DNA of 64,000 nt from Longimicrobiales bacterium (GCA_046704545.1 JBJKRT010000009.1:42456-106455); one strand, 5' to 3'; shown: positions 11,032 through 17,766, counted from the stretch's first letter. Translations and numbers: made by a program. Notes: generated by a model not told the origin, from the letters alone.

Positions 11032-12666
11032 TTGCCCCTGAGGACTCTCAGCACCCGCATCGCCTTCCCCGCCGGGTTCTTCGCGCTGGTCAGCATGGGC
11101 GTCTTGTCGGCCATGCTCATCCGCTCGCAGCGGGAGCAGGTCCTCTCCGAGGTCGTGCGCAGCTCCGAGAGCATCGCCGGCGCCATCGGCCAGAGCATCG
11201 ACAGCGACATGCGCCTCAACCACCGCCAGGGCGTCCGTCAGATGATGGAGGCCGTGGGCAATCACGAGGGGGTGGAGGGCATCCGCCTCTTCAACAAGGA
11301 AGGGCGGATCACCTACTCGTCGCGCCCCGGCGAGGAAGGGCGCATCGTCGACAAGGTGGTCCAGCCGTGTGTTTCGTGTCATTCGAGCACGAAGCCGGAG
11401 ACCGTGCTCGACGACCCCGCCCAGCGCTCCAGGATCTTCACGGACGCCTCGGGCCACCGCATCCTTTCGACGATCCACGTCATCCGGAACCAACCGGGGT
11501 GCCAGGGGGCGAAATGCCACGCTTCGCCCGCCGCGCAGAGCGTGCTGGGCGTGCTCGACGTCTCGATGTCGCTGGACTCGGCCGAATCCCGCCTCGCCGC
11601 ATCCACCCGGGGCGCGCTTCTCTTCTCCGGGGTCGCGGTCGTTCTGATCACGGCCGCGCTGTTCCTCATCATCTGGGGCAGCGTTCGCAAGCCGATCAAC
11701 CGGATGGTGAGCGCAACGCGACGCGTGGTCGAGGGAGACCCGACGGTCCAGGTCCCACGAGGGGCCGCACGGGAGATCGGCATTCTGGCCGGTGCGTTCA
11801 ACGAGGCGGTGGAGAGCCTCAACAGCTCCAACCGACACCTCGAGGAGTGGGTCGGAACGCTCGAGCAGCGGGTTTCCGAAAAGGCGGCCGAGCTGCGTGA
11901 GGCACAGTTTCAGGTCGTGCGCGCCGAGAAGCTCTCGTCCGTGGGCCTGGTGGCCGCGGGTATCGCGCACGAGCTGAACAGCCCCCTGATGGCGATCCTC
12001 ACCTACAGTCACCTCGTGCAGAGGGCCGTCCCGCCGGACTCCCAGGCACACGAGGATCTGCGCATGATCGAACAGCAGGCCAACCGATCTGCCGCCATCA
12101 TACGCCAGCTCCTCGACTACTCGCGCAAGCAGGAAGAGGCTCCGGTCACCGAGCCATGCAGCGTTTCCGAGGTGTTGGGGGGGGCGGAGGAGCTCCTCAA
12201 GGTTGAGATCCAGAACGCGGACGTGCATCTCACCATCTCGGTGCCCGACGATCTTCCCGAGGTCGAGGCGCAGCCGGGGCAGCTCATGCAGGTCTTCGTC
12301 AATCTGATGATGAATGCGGTCCAGGCGATGCCGGAAGGCGGAGATCTGACCGTCGAGACGGATACCGTGCCGCGTTCCGCCTACACCAACGCCAACCTGC
12401 CTCCGCACACGGGCACGGAGCTGGTCCGGGTGACCTTCCGGGACACCGGCGTAGGCATCCGTCCGGAAGACCTCCCGAAGGTCTTCGACCCCTTCTTCAC
12501 CACCAAGCCCGTGGGACAGGGGTCCGGCCTGGGACTCTCTGTCTCGCAGGGACTGATCCGCGGTTATCGCGGCACGATCCTGGTGGAAAGCGACGGGAAG
12601 ACCGGCACGGTCTTCACCGTCCTCCTTCCTGTCTCCGAACCGGTCGAAGCGATGGAAAGCGCATGA
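11032..12666 (+). CDS. Sensor histidine kinase (two TM segments, periplasmic domain with heme-c motifs, HAMP, HisKA, HATPase)
   Basis: TTG start at 11032 (longest ORF; needed to retain TM1). Periplasmic CVSCH (11368-11382) and C-QGAK-CH (11500-11520). TM2 is LLFSGVAVVLITAALFLIIWG, followed by HAMP. H-box AGIAHELNSPL. N/G boxes NLMMNAVQAM, DTGVGI and GSGLGLS. Confidence 0.85.
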   Translation: MPLRTLSTRIAFPAGFFALVSMGVLSAMLIRSQREQVLSEVVRSSESIAGAIGQSIDSDMRLNHRQGVRQMMEAVGNHEGVEGIRLFNKEGRITYSSRPGEEGRIVDKVVQPCVSCHSSTKPETVLDDPAQRSRIFTDASGHRILSTIHVIRNQPGCQGAKCHASPAAQSVLGVLDVSMSLDSAESRLAASTRGALLFSGVAVVLITAALFLIIWGSVRKPINRMVSATRRVVEGDPTVQVPRGAAREIGILAGAFNEAVESLNSSNRHLEEWVGTLEQRVSEKAAELREAQFQVVRAEKLSSVGLVAAGIAHELNSPLMAILTYSHLVQRAVPPDSQAHEDLRMIEQQANRSAAIIRQLLDYSRKQEEAPVTEPCSVSEVLGGAEELLKVEIQNADVHLTISVPDDLPEVEAQPGQLMQVFVNLMMNAVQAMPEGGDLTVETDTVPRSAYTNANLPPHTGTELVRVTFRDTGVGIRPEDLPKVFDPFFTTKPVGQGSGLGLSVSQGLIRGYRGTILVESDGKTGTVFTVLLPVSEPVEAMESA

Positions 12667-14135
12667 GTGACGAGAGCAAGTGGACGGCGCCCCCTCGGGT
12701 GCTGGCGGTCGACGACGAGGCGGTGGTCTGCGAGAGCATCCGCCGCGTGCTCGTGCCCGAGGGCTACCAGGTCACGACGACCACCTCGTCGCGTGAGGCG
12801 CTGGACCTCGTCAAGAAGGAGGTCTTCGACCTGCTCCTGCTGGATATCAAGATGCCCGAGGTCGACGGCATCGAGATCCTGCGCCGGGTGAGCGATGCCT
12901 CCCCGGAGACCGAAGTCATCATCGTCACCGGCTACGCCACGATCGAGACGGCCGTGGAAGCCATCAAGCTGGGCGCGTTCGACTACCTCGAAAAGCCGGT
13001 GAGTCCTCCGCAGCTCCTGGTGGCCGTGGCGCGGGCGCTCGAGCGCAAGCAGCTCGTCGATCTCACCCAGCGCCTGCGCTCCGAGCTGGAAACGCGCTAC
13101 AGCATCGGCAACGTCATCTGCTCTTCGACCGGGATGCGGCGGGTCATGCAGCTCGTCGCGAAGGTAGCGCCCACCAGCAGCACCGTCCTCATCACCGGTG
13201 AGACGGGAACGGGCAAGGACCTCATCGCCCGCGCCGTCCACTACAACAGCTCCCGCAGAGACGCCGCCTTCGTCGTGGCCGACTGCGCGTCGCTCAGCGA
13301 TACGCTGCTGGAGTCGGAGATCTTCGGACACGTGCGCGGTGCGTTCACCGGCGCCGTACGCGACCGAAAGGGCCTCGCGGAGACCGCTCGCGGCGGAACG
13401 CTCTTCCTGGACGAGATCAGCACGATGCCTCCCTCCGTGCAGGGGAGCCTCCTGCGCCTCATCCAGGAGCGTGAGATCCGCCCGGTCGGCGCGGACAAGT
13501 CCGTTTCCGTGGACGTACGTCTGATTGCGGCCACGAACCGCGACCTCCAGGAGATGGTCGAGGAGGGCTCGTTCCGGGAAGACCTCTTCTATCGGCTGAG
13601 CGTCTTCACGATCCGGATCCCGCCGCTGCGCGAGCGCCGCGAGGAGATCCCGCTCCTCGCACACCACTTCGTCAAGCGGTTCGCGCAGCAGTTCAAGAAG
13701 GAGATCGACGGGATCACACCCCGGGCGATGGCGGCCCTGGAAGCCCACGACTGGCCGGGCAACGTCCGAGAGCTCGAGCACGCCATGGAGCGAGCCGTTC
13801 TGCTGGCCGAGAACCGCGCGATCGACCTCGAGGCGATCCCCACGATGATGGGGCATGCCTCCTCGGCCGAATGGGACGACGTGCCCCAGGATGCCCGCGC
13901 GCTCGCCGCCCGCAAGAAGGAGCTCCGCGAAGAAGCCGTGGAGCGGGTGGAGAAGCTGTTCGTTCTCAAGGCCCTCCAGAGCGCGGAGTGGAACGTGACC
14001 CACGCCGCGGAAGCCGTCGGCATGAAGCGACCGAACCTGCACGCCCTCATGCGCAAGCACGGCATCACCGGCCCGCAGAGCTCGGAAGAGGACGGCCCGG
14101 ATGGACCGGATGGACCGGAGTCGTTGTCGGAGTAG
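12663..14135 (+). CDS. Sigma-54-dependent response regulator (NtrC family: REC - AAA+ - Fis-type HTH)
   Basis: REC domain (VLAVDDE...LLLLDIKMPEVDG). Walker A GETGTGKD, sigma-54 contact loop GAFTGA, and a C-terminal HTH (WNVTHAAEAVGMKRPNLHALMRKHG). The ATG overlaps the kinase stop (ATGA). Confidence 0.9.
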   Translation: MSDESKWTAPPRVLAVDDEAVVCESIRRVLVPEGYQVTTTTSSREALDLVKKEVFDLLLLDIKMPEVDGIEILRRVSDASPETEVIIVTGYATIETAVEAIKLGAFDYLEKPVSPPQLLVAVARALERKQLVDLTQRLRSELETRYSIGNVICSSTGMRRVMQLVAKVAPTSSTVLITGETGTGKDLIARAVHYNSSRRDAAFVVADCASLSDTLLESEIFGHVRGAFTGAVRDRKGLAETARGGTLFLDEISTMPPSVQGSLLRLIQEREIRPVGADKSVSVDVRLIAATNRDLQEMVEEGSFREDLFYRLSVFTIRIPPLRERREEIPLLAHHFVKRFAQQFKKEIDGITPRAMAALEAHDWPGNVRELEHAMERAVLLAENRAIDLEAIPTMMGHASSAEWDDVPQDARALAARKKELREEAVERVEKLFVLKALQSAEWNVTHAAEAVGMKRPNLHALMRKHGITGPQSSEEDGPDGPDGPESLSE

Positions 14136-14144
14136 GCCTTTCCC

Positions 14145-17694: not shown

Positions 17695-17717
17695 CGACGA
17701 CCGAAGCGGCTGGTGAG

Positions 17718-17766
17718 ACGGAGGGGCTCCGGCGGCGTAACGTCCGACCGGAGCCCTTCTCCGTTT
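17718..17766 (+). terminator. Intrinsic terminator after the cytochrome gene
   Basis: ACGGAGGGGCTCCGG (17718-17732) pairs with CCGGAGCCCTTCTCCGT (17748-17764) and is followed by TTT. Confidence 0.6.

What the first reader, a model, noticed from the sequence alone, without database searches (positions are those of the whole stretch)
11032..17766. Heme-sensing kinase / NtrC activator / sigma-54 promoter driving a receiver pair and a 15-heme cytochrome c-b fusion
Five consecutive same-strand genes form a coherent unit. They are: (i) a kinase whose periplasmic loop carries heme-c attachment motifs; (ii) a sigma-54 enhancer-binding response regulator; (iii) a near-consensus -24/-12 promoter with upstream palindromes; (iv) a pseudo-receiver plus a membrane-anchored receiver; (v) a cytochrome with 15 CxxCH motifs fused to a diheme cytochrome b, ending in a terminator. 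The last protein resembles Geobacter CbcL-type inner-membrane quinol oxidoreductases used for extracellular electron transfer. Here it comes with a dedicated redox-sensing regulatory cassette and two extra receiver proteins. I do not know this combination as a described system.
Basis: partly seen in the sequence, partly recalled or inferred. Interest (0 to 1): 0.65.

Follow-up and report, generated by a model that had tools for sequence, protein, structure and literature searches.

The report
Heme-sensor, sigma-54 controlled cytochrome operon
This is a five-gene cassette conserved in Gemmatimonadota: a membrane sensor kinase with heme-attachment motifs and a sigma-54 activator appear to switch on an operon for two receiver-type proteins and a 15-heme c / di-heme b membrane cytochrome, which makes it a new variant of a design already described for Geobacter's CbcBA cytochrome.

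Summary
Window 11032-17769 (+) holds five genes and their control sites:
- A kinase with a periplasmic Cache-fold sensor carrying CxxCH and Cx4CH.
- A translationally coupled NtrC-type activator with GAFTGA.
- An intergenic region with the window's only GGCAC-N5-TTGC and all three of its GTAT-N9-ATAC palindromes.
- A 134-aa orphan protein that models as a receiver fold without an acceptor Asp.
- A canonical receiver with a C-terminal hydrophobic anchor.
- A 721-aa cytochrome with 15 CxxCH plus an FdnI-like domain keeping all four heme-b histidines.
- A strong terminal hairpin.

The cassette recurs with different flanks in seven other Gemmatimonadota loci. In them the -24/-12 element is conserved, and the palindrome lies 116-118 bp upstream.

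Each part belongs to a known kind:
- The cytochrome matches the CbcL/MtrH/MtoC architecture.
- The sensor is related to the GSU0582/GSU0935 (sCache_heme) heme-c sensors.
- The overall logic parallels Geobacter BccR/sigma-54/cbcBA.

What is new is the Gemmatimonadota version, with its pseudo-receiver and tail-anchored receiver. Also new is a cross-phylum link between this sensor kinase, two receiver proteins (one of them membrane-anchored) and the c-b fusions.

Function in extracellular electron transfer is inferred, not shown. I rate it a new variant of a known kind, of moderate interest.

The parts
11032..12666 (+). Sensor histidine kinase (544 aa): TM1, periplasmic Cache-fold sensor with two heme-c attachment motifs, TM2, HAMP, HisKA (H313), HATPase_c
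   Evidence: ORF and hydropathy. Pfam domains. Homologues start MPLR.LSTRIA, which supports the TTG start.
11128..11601 (+). Periplasmic sensor domain (residues 33-190), single Cache/PDC fold. CVSCH is encoded at 11368-11382 and CQGAKCH at 11500-11520.
   Evidence: AF2 model with pLDDT 72 and pTM 0.69. Foldseek top hits are WalK, CitA, DctB and KinD sensor domains. Both motifs are invariant across three phyla and present in 142 of 149 family representatives, spaced 42-44 residues apart. There is a weak PF21563 hit for the window protein, and 30 of 70 relatives hit it.
12663..14135 (+). NtrC-type sigma-54 enhancer-binding response regulator (490 aa): REC, AAA+ with GAFTGA, HTH_8. Its ATG overlaps the kinase stop.
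   Evidence: Pfam and NCBIfam. GAFTGA at 226, GETGTGK at 179, DEI at 250. The receiver catalytic residues are invariant in alignment A5.
14148..14186 (.). Distal activator-binding candidates: two adjacent palindromes, TGTATGGCAACATAATACA and CGTATACAGGGCACATACG, about 230 bp upstream of the -24 GG
   Evidence: A palindrome at the same distance (230-232 bp) occurs in L081 and L082.
14262..14280 (.). Proximal activator-binding candidate: palindrome TGTATGCGCTGCGCATACG, 116 bp upstream of the -24 GG
   Evidence: The same motif lies at 116-118 bp in L001, L002 (one arm GTAC), L003, L005, L081 and L082, and as CGTAT-N9-ATACA in L083.
14377..14392 (+). Sigma-54 type -24/-12 promoter CGGCAC-GCCCC-TTGCC. 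The predicted start of transcription is near 14403 (inferred).
   Evidence: It is the only match in the window. [CT]GGCA[CT]-N5-TTGC[CT] sits at the same place in all seven other Gemmatimonadota loci. An AT-rich patch (30-47% GC against 67-72% for the locus) lies 30-60 bp upstream.
14469..14873 (+). pREC: 134-aa orphan protein with a receiver (CheY-like) fold but no phospho-acceptor, i.e. a pseudo-receiver
   Evidence: No Pfam or NCBIfam hit. The 60 homologues are unnamed or called 'hypothetical', and every source name that gives an organism says Gemmatimonadota or Longimicrobiales. AF2 model with pLDDT 84 and pTM 0.80 shows a (beta-alpha)5 fold. Foldseek hits are CpaE/TadZ-type domains and the HupR receiver, TM up to 0.78. 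The acceptor position is H, N, R, V, Y or E in the residues tabulated and never a conserved Asp.
14878..15510 (+). REC_TM: canonical single receiver (D12, D13, D56, T84, K106), an acidic linker, and a conserved C-terminal hydrophobic anchor of about 33 residues
   Evidence: Pfam E 3e-28. Hydropathy 164-202. Conservation in five orthologues.
15529..17694 (+). Cytochrome c-b fusion (721 aa). In order: signal peptide; periplasmic 15-heme c domain (15619-16773); linker TM; four-helix FdnI-like di-heme b domain (16969-17547).
   Evidence: 15 CxxCH, with 35 His and 1 Met in the periplasmic part. Pfam Paired_CXXCH_1, Cytochrome_C7 and Ni_hydr_CYTB. H490, H532, H639 and H654 align with FdnI H18, H57, H155 and H169 and are invariant in 16 diverse homologues.
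17713..17769 (+). Terminal hairpin, the likely intrinsic terminator of the operon
   Evidence: dG -41.4 kcal/mol, z -5.6, 0 of 200 shuffles as stable. The U-tract is short.

Best explanation
This is a two-layer regulatory cassette for an inner-membrane quinone-pool/periplasm electron-transfer cytochrome.

Proposed mechanism:
1. The kinase exposes a single Cache-fold domain in the periplasm. That domain most likely carries covalently bound c-type heme at CxxCH and Cx4CH. The haem's redox or ligand state is taken to set kinase activity (inferred).
2. The kinase phosphorylates the co-translated NtrC-type activator (inferred).
3. The activator binds the TGTAT-N9-ATACA palindromes 116 and about 230 bp upstream of a sigma-54 promoter. 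It opens that promoter through its GAFTGA AAA+ domain (inferred from sequence conservation).
4. The transcript encodes a pseudo-receiver, a membrane-tethered phosphorylatable receiver and the cytochrome.
5. The cytochrome connects the menaquinone pool, through two b hemes in an FdnI-like bundle, to a chain of 15 bis-His c hemes in the periplasm. It most likely works as a CbcL-like quinol oxidase that passes electrons to periplasmic or extracellular acceptors (inferred from architecture).
6. The two receiver-type proteins are made only when the system is on. The kinase probably addresses them too, giving feedback (a phosphate sink) or direct control at the membrane (speculative).
For: - Gene content, domains and motifs.
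- The complete cassette recurs, in the same order, in L001, L005, L081, L082 and L083 and in part in L002 and L003. L082 and L083 have unrelated flanking genes, so the five genes travel as a module.
- The promoter is conserved in 8 of 8 loci. The palindrome sits at a fixed 116-118 bp in 7 of 8 and as a variant in the eighth. All three palindromes of the 64-kb window lie in this one intergenic region.
- No sigma-70-like site was found in 10800-17900.
- The sensor has a Cache fold. Both Cys motifs are invariant across Gemmatimonadota, Melioribacteraceae/Bacteroidota and KSB1 and present in 95% of 149 family representatives.
- The sensor family overlaps Pfam PF21563, the model whose matches include the heme-c sensors GSU0582/GSU0935 (PMC3460858).
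- All four FdnI heme-b ligands are conserved.
- In loci that lack an activator (Melioribacter L064 and relatives), the only receivers next to the same kinase are two receiver proteins beside the c-b cytochrome. This supports the idea that such receivers are kinase partners.
- Precedent: the Geobacter cbcBA operon is sigma-54 dependent, needs BccR and is induced at low redox potential (bioRxiv 10.1101/2021.04.15.440034).
Against: - Nothing here is experimental. Heme attachment to the kinase, phosphotransfer, activator binding and transcription from the -24/-12 element are all inferred.
- rpoN is not in the window or in the loci held, so its presence in the genome is untested.
- The window protein scores below the curated cut-off of PF21563 (17.5 against 27 bits) and does not hit PF11845.
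- No other multiheme cytochrome, porin or conduit lies in the 64 kb, so an extracellular acceptor is not indicated for this lineage.
- The FdnI-type topology puts the quinone site on the cytoplasmic side. That favours energy conservation in the opposite direction, quinone reduction. This follows from established knowledge of E. coli Fdh-N.
- The roles of the two receiver proteins are guesses.
Confidence: 0.6

Rival explanations
1. The regulatory logic is the same, but the cytochrome runs the other way. It would be an MtoC-like quinone reductase that takes electrons from periplasmic or extracellular donors (for example Fe(II) or reduced shuttles) into the menaquinone pool and conserves energy as Fdh-N does.
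For: The b domain aligns along its whole length with FdnI, and all four ligands keep their positions. In Fdh-N this arrangement reduces quinone at the cytoplasmic face (established knowledge). Zhong and Shi found CbcL/MtrH/MtoC homologues in both Fe(III) reducers and Fe(II) oxidisers, with no sequence feature that tells direction (PMC6295460). Many cultured Gemmatimonadota are aerobes or facultative (background knowledge).
Against: No donor-oxidising or outer-membrane partner genes are nearby. In Melioribacter and KSB1 the distant relatives sit in porin-multiheme clusters, as in metal reducers. The one regulated precedent (cbcBA) is a quinol oxidase.
Confidence: 0.2
2. The kinase is a nitric oxide (or other diatomic gas) sensor rather than a redox-potential sensor. 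The operon would then be a nitrosative or anoxic stress response in which the cytochrome feeds electrons to periplasmic reductases.
For: The 2026 description of sCache_heme domains reports that those fused to signalling modules have the properties of NO sensors, not O2 sensors (PMC12889525). The window's sensor shares the Cache fold and a heme motif before the last strand.
Against: The domain here is a distinct branch with two motifs (CxxCH plus Cx4CH) and does not reach the PF11845 or PF21563 thresholds. Its constant genomic partner is an electron-transfer cytochrome, not an NO reductase. The Geobacter analogue responds to falling redox potential.
Confidence: 0.15
3. The Cys motifs of the kinase do not bind heme. 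They would form disulfides or a metal site, making the kinase a thiol or metal sensor.
For: Heme attachment was not and cannot be tested here. Cx4CH is a non-standard motif. The window protein misses the curated thresholds of the heme-sensor Pfam models.
Against: The His after the second Cys is invariant in both motifs across phyla, as expected for a proximal heme ligand. The CX2-4CH signature is reported for the Geobacter heme-sensor set (PMC8396549). 30 of 70 relatives hit PF21563.
Confidence: 0.05

Closest known systems
Geobacter sulfurreducens BccR / sigma-54 / cbcBA locus (GSU0593-GSU0599)
   Same: A REC-AAA+-HTH sigma-54 activator lies next to a sigma-54-driven operon. Small proteins and a response regulator precede an inner-membrane b-type plus multiheme c-type cytochrome (bioRxiv 10.1101/2021.04.15.440034). 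The neighbouring locus tag GSU0599 is a two-component protein with two CX2-4CH heme motifs (PMC8396549).
   Different: Here the c and b parts are one polypeptide (c first, 15 hemes), not CbcB plus a 7-heme CbcA. The activator is co-directional and translationally coupled to the kinase, not divergent. The operon's small proteins are a pseudo-receiver and a tail-anchored single receiver, not two hypotheticals plus a sigma-54-type regulator. Orthology of any component with the Geobacter proteins was not tested, because their sequences were not obtainable with these tools.
CbcL / MtrH / MtoC family of multiheme c - HydC/FdnI b fusion cytochromes
   Same: An N-terminal periplasmic multiheme domain is followed by an FdnI-like membrane domain with conserved heme-b histidines. 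The family is known in 15 phyla with 3-23 hemes (PMC6295460). The c hemes are probably all bis-His, as in CbcL (35 His and 1 Met; PMC9129911).
   Different: There are 15 hemes against 9 in CbcL. By my hydropathy reading there are five helices rather than six. The Gemmatimonadota clade (about 65 clusters at 43-80% identity) is not among the published homologues; the single Gemmatimonadetes entry there is a 951-aa, 19-heme protein. cbcL is constitutively expressed in Geobacter, whereas this gene sits behind a sigma-54 promoter.
Heme-c Cache sensors (sCache_heme; GSU0582/GSU0935; Pfam PF21563 and PF11845)
   Same: A periplasmic single Cache/PDC fold with a covalent heme-c motif placed before the last strand, fused to signalling modules (PMC12889525; PMC3460858). 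A second heme motif has been noted in GSU0591, GSU0599, Adeh_2011 and Adeh_3383 (PMC3831638).
   Different: This is a distinct sub-family with a fixed pair, CxxCH then Cx4CH 42-44 residues later. It is below the curated Pfam thresholds for the window protein. No member of this sub-family has, as far as I could find, been characterised.
E. coli formate dehydrogenase-N gamma subunit FdnI (PDB 1KQF chain C)
   Same: A four-helix di-heme b bundle. All four axial histidines align.
   Different: FdnI is a separate subunit that receives electrons from an Fe-S subunit. Here an extra helix ties it to a 15-heme domain.
Pseudo-receiver domains (CpaE/TadZ N-terminal domains) and single-domain response regulators
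   Same: pREC has the (beta-alpha)5 CheY fold, and its best structural matches include these domains. REC_TM has all the catalytic residues of a receiver.
   Different: pREC is a free-standing 134-aa protein seen only in Gemmatimonadota, with no sequence-level similarity to receivers (hhalign probability 1.6%). I do not know of a described family of receivers with a C-terminal membrane anchor.

Membership tests
CbcL/MtrH/MtoC-type c-b fusion cytochrome | N-terminal exported domain with several CX2CH motifs (3-23 reported) | tested here: met
   Signal-peptide-like N-terminus and 15 CxxCH between residues 40 and 394.
CbcL/MtrH/MtoC-type c-b fusion cytochrome | C-terminal HydC/FdnI-like b-type cytochrome membrane domain | tested here: met
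   PF01292 at E 1.2e-14 over residues 481-673. FdnI (1kqf_C) at E 5e-11 with the profile and 4.7e-5 with the single sequence.
CbcL/MtrH/MtoC-type c-b fusion cytochrome | Conserved histidine ligands for two b hemes | tested here: met
   H490, H532, H639 and H654 align with FdnI H18, H57, H155 and H169 and are invariant in 16 homologues.
CbcL/MtrH/MtoC-type c-b fusion cytochrome | Detectable sequence similarity to CbcL (GSU0274), MtrH or MtoC themselves | not tested
The window protein is 25-29% identical over nearly its full length to Opitutaceae and Ignavibacteriota fusions, the same taxa as in the published homologue table.
CbcL/MtrH/MtoC-type c-b fusion cytochrome | Role in extracellular electron transfer | not testable with these tools
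   No conduit genes lie in the window. Distant relatives in Melioribacter and KSB1 sit beside beta-barrel and multiheme genes.
NtrC-type bacterial enhancer-binding protein | Receiver, AAA+ sigma-54 interaction domain with GAFTGA, and a C-terminal HTH | tested here: met
Sigma-54 dependent promoter | GG and GC elements spaced as in TGGCAC-N5-TTGC, upstream of the regulated gene, with upstream activator sites | tested here: met
   CGGCAC-N5-TTGCC at 14377-14392. It is conserved in 8 of 8 loci, two of them with the full TGGCAC. Palindromes lie at a fixed distance.
Sigma-54 dependent promoter | rpoN present in the genome; transcription depends on it | not testable with these tools
   No RpoN box was found in the window or in the seven related loci. 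The rest of the genome is not available.
Heme-c Cache sensor (sCache_heme / Mcp40H-20_sensor) | Extracytoplasmic single Cache fold | tested here: met
   AF2 model and Foldseek hits to WalK, CitA, DctB, KinD and TlpB sensors.
Heme-c Cache sensor (sCache_heme / Mcp40H-20_sensor) | Strictly conserved CXXCH in an insertion of the Cache fold | tested here: inconclusive
   Two conserved motifs exist. The one at the equivalent place, before the last strand, is Cx4CH rather than CXXCH. The CxxCH lies between strands 2 and 3.
Heme-c Cache sensor (sCache_heme / Mcp40H-20_sensor) | Match to the curated family model (PF21563 or PF11845) | tested here: not met
   The window protein scores 17.5 bits against a cut-off of 27 for PF21563 and has no PF11845 hit. 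However, 30 of 70 relatives match PF21563 at E<=1e-3, the best at 1.3e-7.
Heme-c Cache sensor (sCache_heme / Mcp40H-20_sensor) | Covalently bound heme c | not testable with these tools
   This needs expression with a cytochrome c maturation system, then heme staining and mass spectrometry.
Response regulator receiver domain (for pREC) | Match to PF00072 and a conserved phospho-acceptor Asp, Thr/Ser and Lys | tested here: not met
   No Pfam hit even at E<=10. hhalign probability is 1.6%. The acceptor position is H, N, R, V, Y or E. The fold is nevertheless receiver-like, so it is filed as a pseudo-receiver.
Response regulator receiver domain (for REC_TM) | PF00072 match with DD, D, T and K catalytic residues | tested here: met
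   E 3.2e-28. D12, D13, D56, T84 and K106 are invariant.
Geobacter BccR-cbcBA type system | Sigma-54 activator next to a sigma-54-driven operon that ends in b- and c-type inner-membrane cytochromes and carries receiver or hypothetical genes upstream of them | tested here: met
   The window's layout compared with the published description. This is a match of design, not of orthology.
Geobacter BccR-cbcBA type system | Orthology of kinase, activator and cytochromes with GSU0599, GSU0598 and GSU0593/0594 | not tested
   The Geobacter sequences could not be fetched. The cytochrome here is a c-b fusion, so at least that component differs in form.

The most novel reading that the evidence does not exclude
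The di-motif heme kinase, a membrane-tethered receiver and a second receiver-type protein form an ancient signalling module shared across phyla (Gemmatimonadota, Ignavibacteriota/Bacteroidota, KSB1). The module would be physically coupled to c-b fusion cytochromes. The kinase would read the redox state of the periplasmic electron chain and, through the tethered receiver, gate the cytochrome itself after translation. In Gemmatimonadota it would also control its transcription through sigma-54. That would be a phospho-relay that tunes a respiratory quinol oxidase directly.
Probability: 0.15. Interest if true: 0.75.

Novelty: new variant of a known kind. Interest (0 to 1): 0.45.

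Why it matters
Gemmatimonadota are abundant in soils, groundwater and sludge, but their anaerobic or extracellular respiration is almost unknown. The cassette gives a cleanly delimited, conserved and testable regulon, with a sensor, an activator, a DNA site, a promoter and an effector cytochrome. It suggests that sigma-54/EBP control of inner-membrane bc-type cytochromes, shown so far only for Geobacter cbcBA, is a widespread solution. 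It also pairs an uncharacterised two-motif branch of the heme-Cache sensors with a defined output, which would make the signal (redox potential or NO) experimentally tractable. Finally, the pseudo-receiver and the tail-anchored receiver are candidates for a new way of wiring two-component signalling to a respiratory enzyme.

Tried and rejected
- Profile-profile comparison of pREC with receivers gave no support (probability 1.6%). Only the structure model showed the fold.
- The protein search with the kinase's N-terminal 236 residues returned only 6 proteins. The exhaustive representative search was needed to see the family.
- A literature search for 'BccR' alone was swamped by unrelated acronyms. 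The search 'CbcL + sigma54 + two-component' was also uninformative.
- No paper linking Gemmatimonadota to this cassette was found.
- The terminator scan found no site after the cytochrome gene, because the hairpin's loop and stem fall outside its rules. Folding showed the hairpin.
- The inverted-repeat tool did not report the 8+1+8 palindromes, which are below its length limit.
- No E. coli-type IHF consensus lies between the palindrome and the promoter, only an AT-rich patch.
- No Rfam family matches 10800-17900.
- No RpoN box was found in the window or related loci.
- I could not obtain the sequences of CbcL, GSU0599, BccR or GSU0596/0597/3489, so orthology with the Geobacter systems stays untested. 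One cluster look-up of ten sensor-family representatives gave only taxon-level names (Planctomycetota, Desulfarculaceae, Desulfobacterales).
- I considered and rejected chance juxtaposition. The cassette recurs with different neighbours.
- I considered and rejected the upstream MerR-TPR gene as part of the unit. It is present in L081 but absent in L082 and L083.

Full report
What is there. The window is about 67% G+C. On the + strand between 11032 and 17769 lie five tightly packed genes.

The kinase. It spans 11032-12666 (544 aa). Hydrophobic segments at about residues 10-32 and 190-222 enclose a stretch of about 155 residues that holds CVSCH (113) and CQGAKCH (157). HAMP, HisKA and HATPase_c follow.

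The activator. Its gene (12663-14135) overlaps the kinase stop by four bases. It has REC, Sigma54_activat (E 9e-68), AAA_lid_14 and HTH_8, with GAFTGA, Walker A and Walker B intact.

The operon genes. After a 333-nt gap come three genes separated by 4 and 18 nt:
- A 134-aa protein (14469-14873; GTG start 7 nt after GGAGGAGGA) with no Pfam or NCBIfam match.
- A 210-aa protein (14878-15510) with a canonical receiver domain and a C-terminal hydrophobic stretch.
- A 721-aa cytochrome (15529-17694) with exactly 15 CxxCH motifs and a Ni_hydr_CYTB (FdnI/HydC-like) domain at residues 481-673.

A hairpin of -41.4 kcal/mol (z -5.6) follows at 17713-17769. No other ORF in the 64 kb has two or more CxxCH motifs.

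The promoter region. GGCAC-N5-TTGC occurs once in the window, at 14378-14391. One such hit alone is not improbable, since 34 of 100 shuffles gave at least one. The pattern GTAT-N9-ATAC occurs three times in the window, all within 14149-14279, against 0.05 expected.

Comparison settles the promoter question. In seven other Gemmatimonadota loci, [CT]GGCA[CT]-N5-TTGC[CT] lies at the same place upstream of the small gene. L001-L003 and L005 came from the genome scan, and L081-L083 from contig look-ups. TGTAT-N9-ATACA lies 116-118 bp upstream of the GG in six of them. L083 has the variant CGTAT-N9-ATACA at that spot. A second copy lies at 230-232 bp in the window, L081 and L082. Between palindrome and promoter the DNA drops to 30-47% G+C in genomes of 67-72%, but there is no E. 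coli-type IHF consensus. No sigma-70-like site was found anywhere in 10800-17900. I read this as a genuine sigma-54 promoter with activator sites. The predicted start near 14403 is an inference.

Is it a unit? The cytochrome has about 65 homologue clusters at 43-80% identity. The few whose sources name an organism say Gemmatimonadota or Longimicrobiales. A second tier at 25-33% identity follows, and related loci place it in Ignavibacteriota, Bacteroidota, Opitutaceae, Chloroflexota and others. The complete five-gene order recurs in L001, L005, L081, L082 and L083, and as far as the contigs reach in L002 and L003. L081 shares the window's neighbours (S46 peptidase and MerR-TPR upstream; cellulase and a NagB-PIG-L fusion downstream). 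L082 and L083 have entirely different neighbours, so the five genes are a self-contained module. The small protein has 60 homologue clusters. All are unnamed or called 'hypothetical', and every source name that gives an organism says Gemmatimonadota or Longimicrobiales. That count is close to the count of cytochrome clusters.

The kinase's sensor. Both Cys motifs, each with its His, are invariant in the kinases of Gemmatimonadota. They are also invariant in kinases found next to distant c-b cytochromes in Melioribacteraceae/Bacteroidota and in a KSB1 genome. An AlphaFold model of residues 31-203 (pLDDT 72, pTM 0.69) has the single Cache/PDC topology. Its best structural matches are the WalK, CitA, DctB, KinD and TlpB sensor domains. 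In the model, CxxCH sits on a short helix between strands 2 and 3, and Cx4CH sits in the loop before the last strand.

The sensor family. An exhaustive search found 894 representative clusters at E<=1e-3. Of the top 149, 142 have both motifs, spaced 42-44 residues apart. Nearly all full-length members are HAMP-HisKA-HATPase kinases, and 30 of 70 match Pfam PF21563. The window protein also matches PF21563, but only weakly (17.5 bits against a cut-off of 27). A profile of the window sensor and its close homologues faintly matches 3B42, a G. sulfurreducens chemoreceptor heme-c sensor domain (E 0.35). GSU0582 and GSU0935 each bind one c heme (PMC3460858).

Published relatives of the sensor. A 2026 preprint reclassifies these sensors and Tll0287 as 'sCache_heme'. 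It reports NO-sensor behaviour for members fused to signalling modules (PMC12889525). Sensors with a second heme motif have been noted (GSU0591, GSU0599, Adeh_2011, Adeh_3383; PMC3831638). So the 'heme-sensing kinase' reading is well founded by homology, but heme attachment itself is untested. The sensor is an uncharacterised two-motif branch of a known kind.

The two small proteins. Sequence methods do not recognise the 134-aa protein as a receiver (hhalign probability 1.6%). A model from 40 homologues (pLDDT 84, pTM 0.80) is a clean (beta-alpha)5 fold. Its best matches are CpaE/TadZ-type domains and true receivers such as HupR, with TM up to 0.78. At the end of strand 3, where receivers carry the acceptor Asp, the residues tabulated for the family are H, N, R, V, Y or E. 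The Lys after strand 5 is also missing. A PKG motif and the segment PLPIAEYL.ACGV (helix 4 to strand 5) are nearly invariant. 'Pseudo-receiver' is therefore supported on structural grounds.

The 210-aa protein has all the receiver catalytic residues (D12, D13, D56, T84, K106), an acidic linker of variable length, and a conserved hydrophobic tail of about 33 residues (GGLIAAPILGLAFVIFLPVIGFGALFW). Whether the tail is one helix or a hairpin cannot be told.

The cytochrome. The c domain has 35 His and one Met, enough for bis-His ligation of all 15 hemes, as shown for CbcL (PMC9129911). Profile searches relate it to MtrA, the high-molecular-weight cytochromes and MtrC/OmcA-type proteins. The membrane part aligns with E. 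coli FdnI. H490, H532, H639 and H654 fall on FdnI H18, H57, H155 and H169, the ligands of the two b hemes (the ligand assignments are from my knowledge of the Fdh-N structure). All four are invariant in 16 diverse homologues. By my hydropathy reading there are five helices. One linker helix carries the chain from the periplasm to the cytoplasm, and an Arg-rich loop follows it. The four-helix bundle comes next.

This is the CbcL/MtrH/MtoC architecture, already catalogued in 15 phyla with 3-23 hemes (PMC6295460). The only Gemmatimonadetes entry in that catalogue is a different, 951-aa 19-heme protein.

Deeper context. In Melioribacter sp. Ez-97 (L064) the same type of kinase is followed by two receiver-GcvH fusion proteins, the second with an N-terminal membrane helix. 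The c-b cytochrome comes next, then a small c cytochrome, a beta-barrel-sized protein with no Pfam match, and two further multiheme cytochromes. Several Melioribacteraceae/Bacteroidota loci repeat the kinase and the two receiver genes. A KSB1 locus (L075) has the cytochrome, the heme kinase, an activator and the two receiver-GcvH genes.

In Ignavibacteriota a cytoplasmic PAS kinase plus an activator precede the cytochrome. Two themes therefore recur around this cytochrome family: sigma-54 activators, and the heme kinase with a pair of receiver proteins, one of them membrane-bound. Gemmatimonadota combine both.

Closest described system. In G. sulfurreducens the cbcBA operon has a sigma-54 promoter and encodes two hypothetical proteins, a response regulator (GSU0596), the di-heme b CbcB and the 7-heme CbcA. 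It needs the divergently encoded activator BccR (GSU0598) and is induced as redox potential falls (bioRxiv 10.1101/2021.04.15.440034). GSU0599, the next locus tag, is listed as a two-component protein with two CX2-4CH motifs (PMC8396549). The published text I read does not connect it to BccR; that link is my inference from the numbering. The window's cassette has the same logic, so the combination is not unprecedented. It differs in four ways:
- the cytochrome is fused;
- the small proteins are of different kinds;
- the gene orientation differs;
- the phylum is different.

How it most likely works.
- Shown by sequence and conservation: the parts, their order, the promoter and the palindromes.
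- Inferred from family knowledge:
  - the kinase phosphorylates the activator;
  - the activator binds the palindromes and opens the sigma-54 promoter;
  - the cytochrome links menaquinone to a periplasmic heme chain.
- Speculative: the tethered receiver is a second kinase target that gives feedback or acts on the cytochrome, and the pseudo-receiver modulates one of these partners through its conserved helix 4-strand 5 face.

The direction of electron flow is open. The FdnI-type layout places the quinone site towards the cytoplasm. Outward flow (quinol oxidation, as proposed for CbcL) would then cost membrane potential, while inward flow would conserve energy as in Fdh-N. The signal is also open (redox poise or NO).

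Verdict. I rate it a new variant of a known kind, of moderate interest.

Noticed in passing
L005:13969-20340 (minus strand); partly L002:4587-6643: About 2 kb beyond the c-b cytochrome lies a second cytochrome set under its own kinase and sigma-54 activator. It runs: kinase without heme motifs, activator, an 11-heme cytochrome with a C-terminal helix, a separate FdnI-like cytochrome b, and a 12-heme cytochrome. This is a split, CbcBA-like arrangement. The window itself lacks it.
   Followed up: partly
L064:7694-8512 and 8537-9679; L075:15228-16397 and 16457-17248: These are receiver domains fused to a glycine-cleavage H-protein-like (PF01597) domain. They come in pairs, one of each pair with an N-terminal membrane helix, and always beside the two-motif heme kinase and a c-b cytochrome. 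I know of no described role for such fusions.
   Followed up: partly
L064:5809-7701: The Melioribacter heme kinase carries a Cys-rich insertion of about 100 residues (CP..H, CPVC, CPVCG: zinc-ribbon-like) inside its ATPase domain. The Gemmatimonadota kinases lack it.
   Followed up: no
L019, L021, L026, L030, L041, L046, L051 (about 1.3-3.7 kb upstream of the cytochrome match): In Ignavibacteriota and related loci, a cytoplasmic PAS kinase and an NtrC-type activator precede the c-b fusion cytochrome. This suggests that sigma-54 control of this cytochrome family recurs with different sensors.
   Followed up: partly
window:9174-10049 and L081:1-129, L083:11394-13970: A Ku homologue lies just upstream of the cassette's neighbours, and LigD genes lie near related loci. 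This is non-homologous end-joining machinery, unrelated to the finding.
   Followed up: no
window:10072-10911: A MerR-type HTH fused to TPR repeats lies directly upstream of the kinase. It is conserved in L081 but not in L082 or L083, so it is probably not part of the cassette.
   Followed up: yes
window:10954-10959: A TTGACA hexamer lies about 75 nt upstream of the kinase start with no convincing -10 partner. The promoter of the kinase-activator pair remains unidentified.
   Followed up: no
window:17801-20933: Downstream genes are a secreted GH5 cellulase-family protein and a glucosamine-6-phosphate isomerase/PIG-L (LmbE-like) fusion. The same pair follows the cassette in L081.
   Followed up: no
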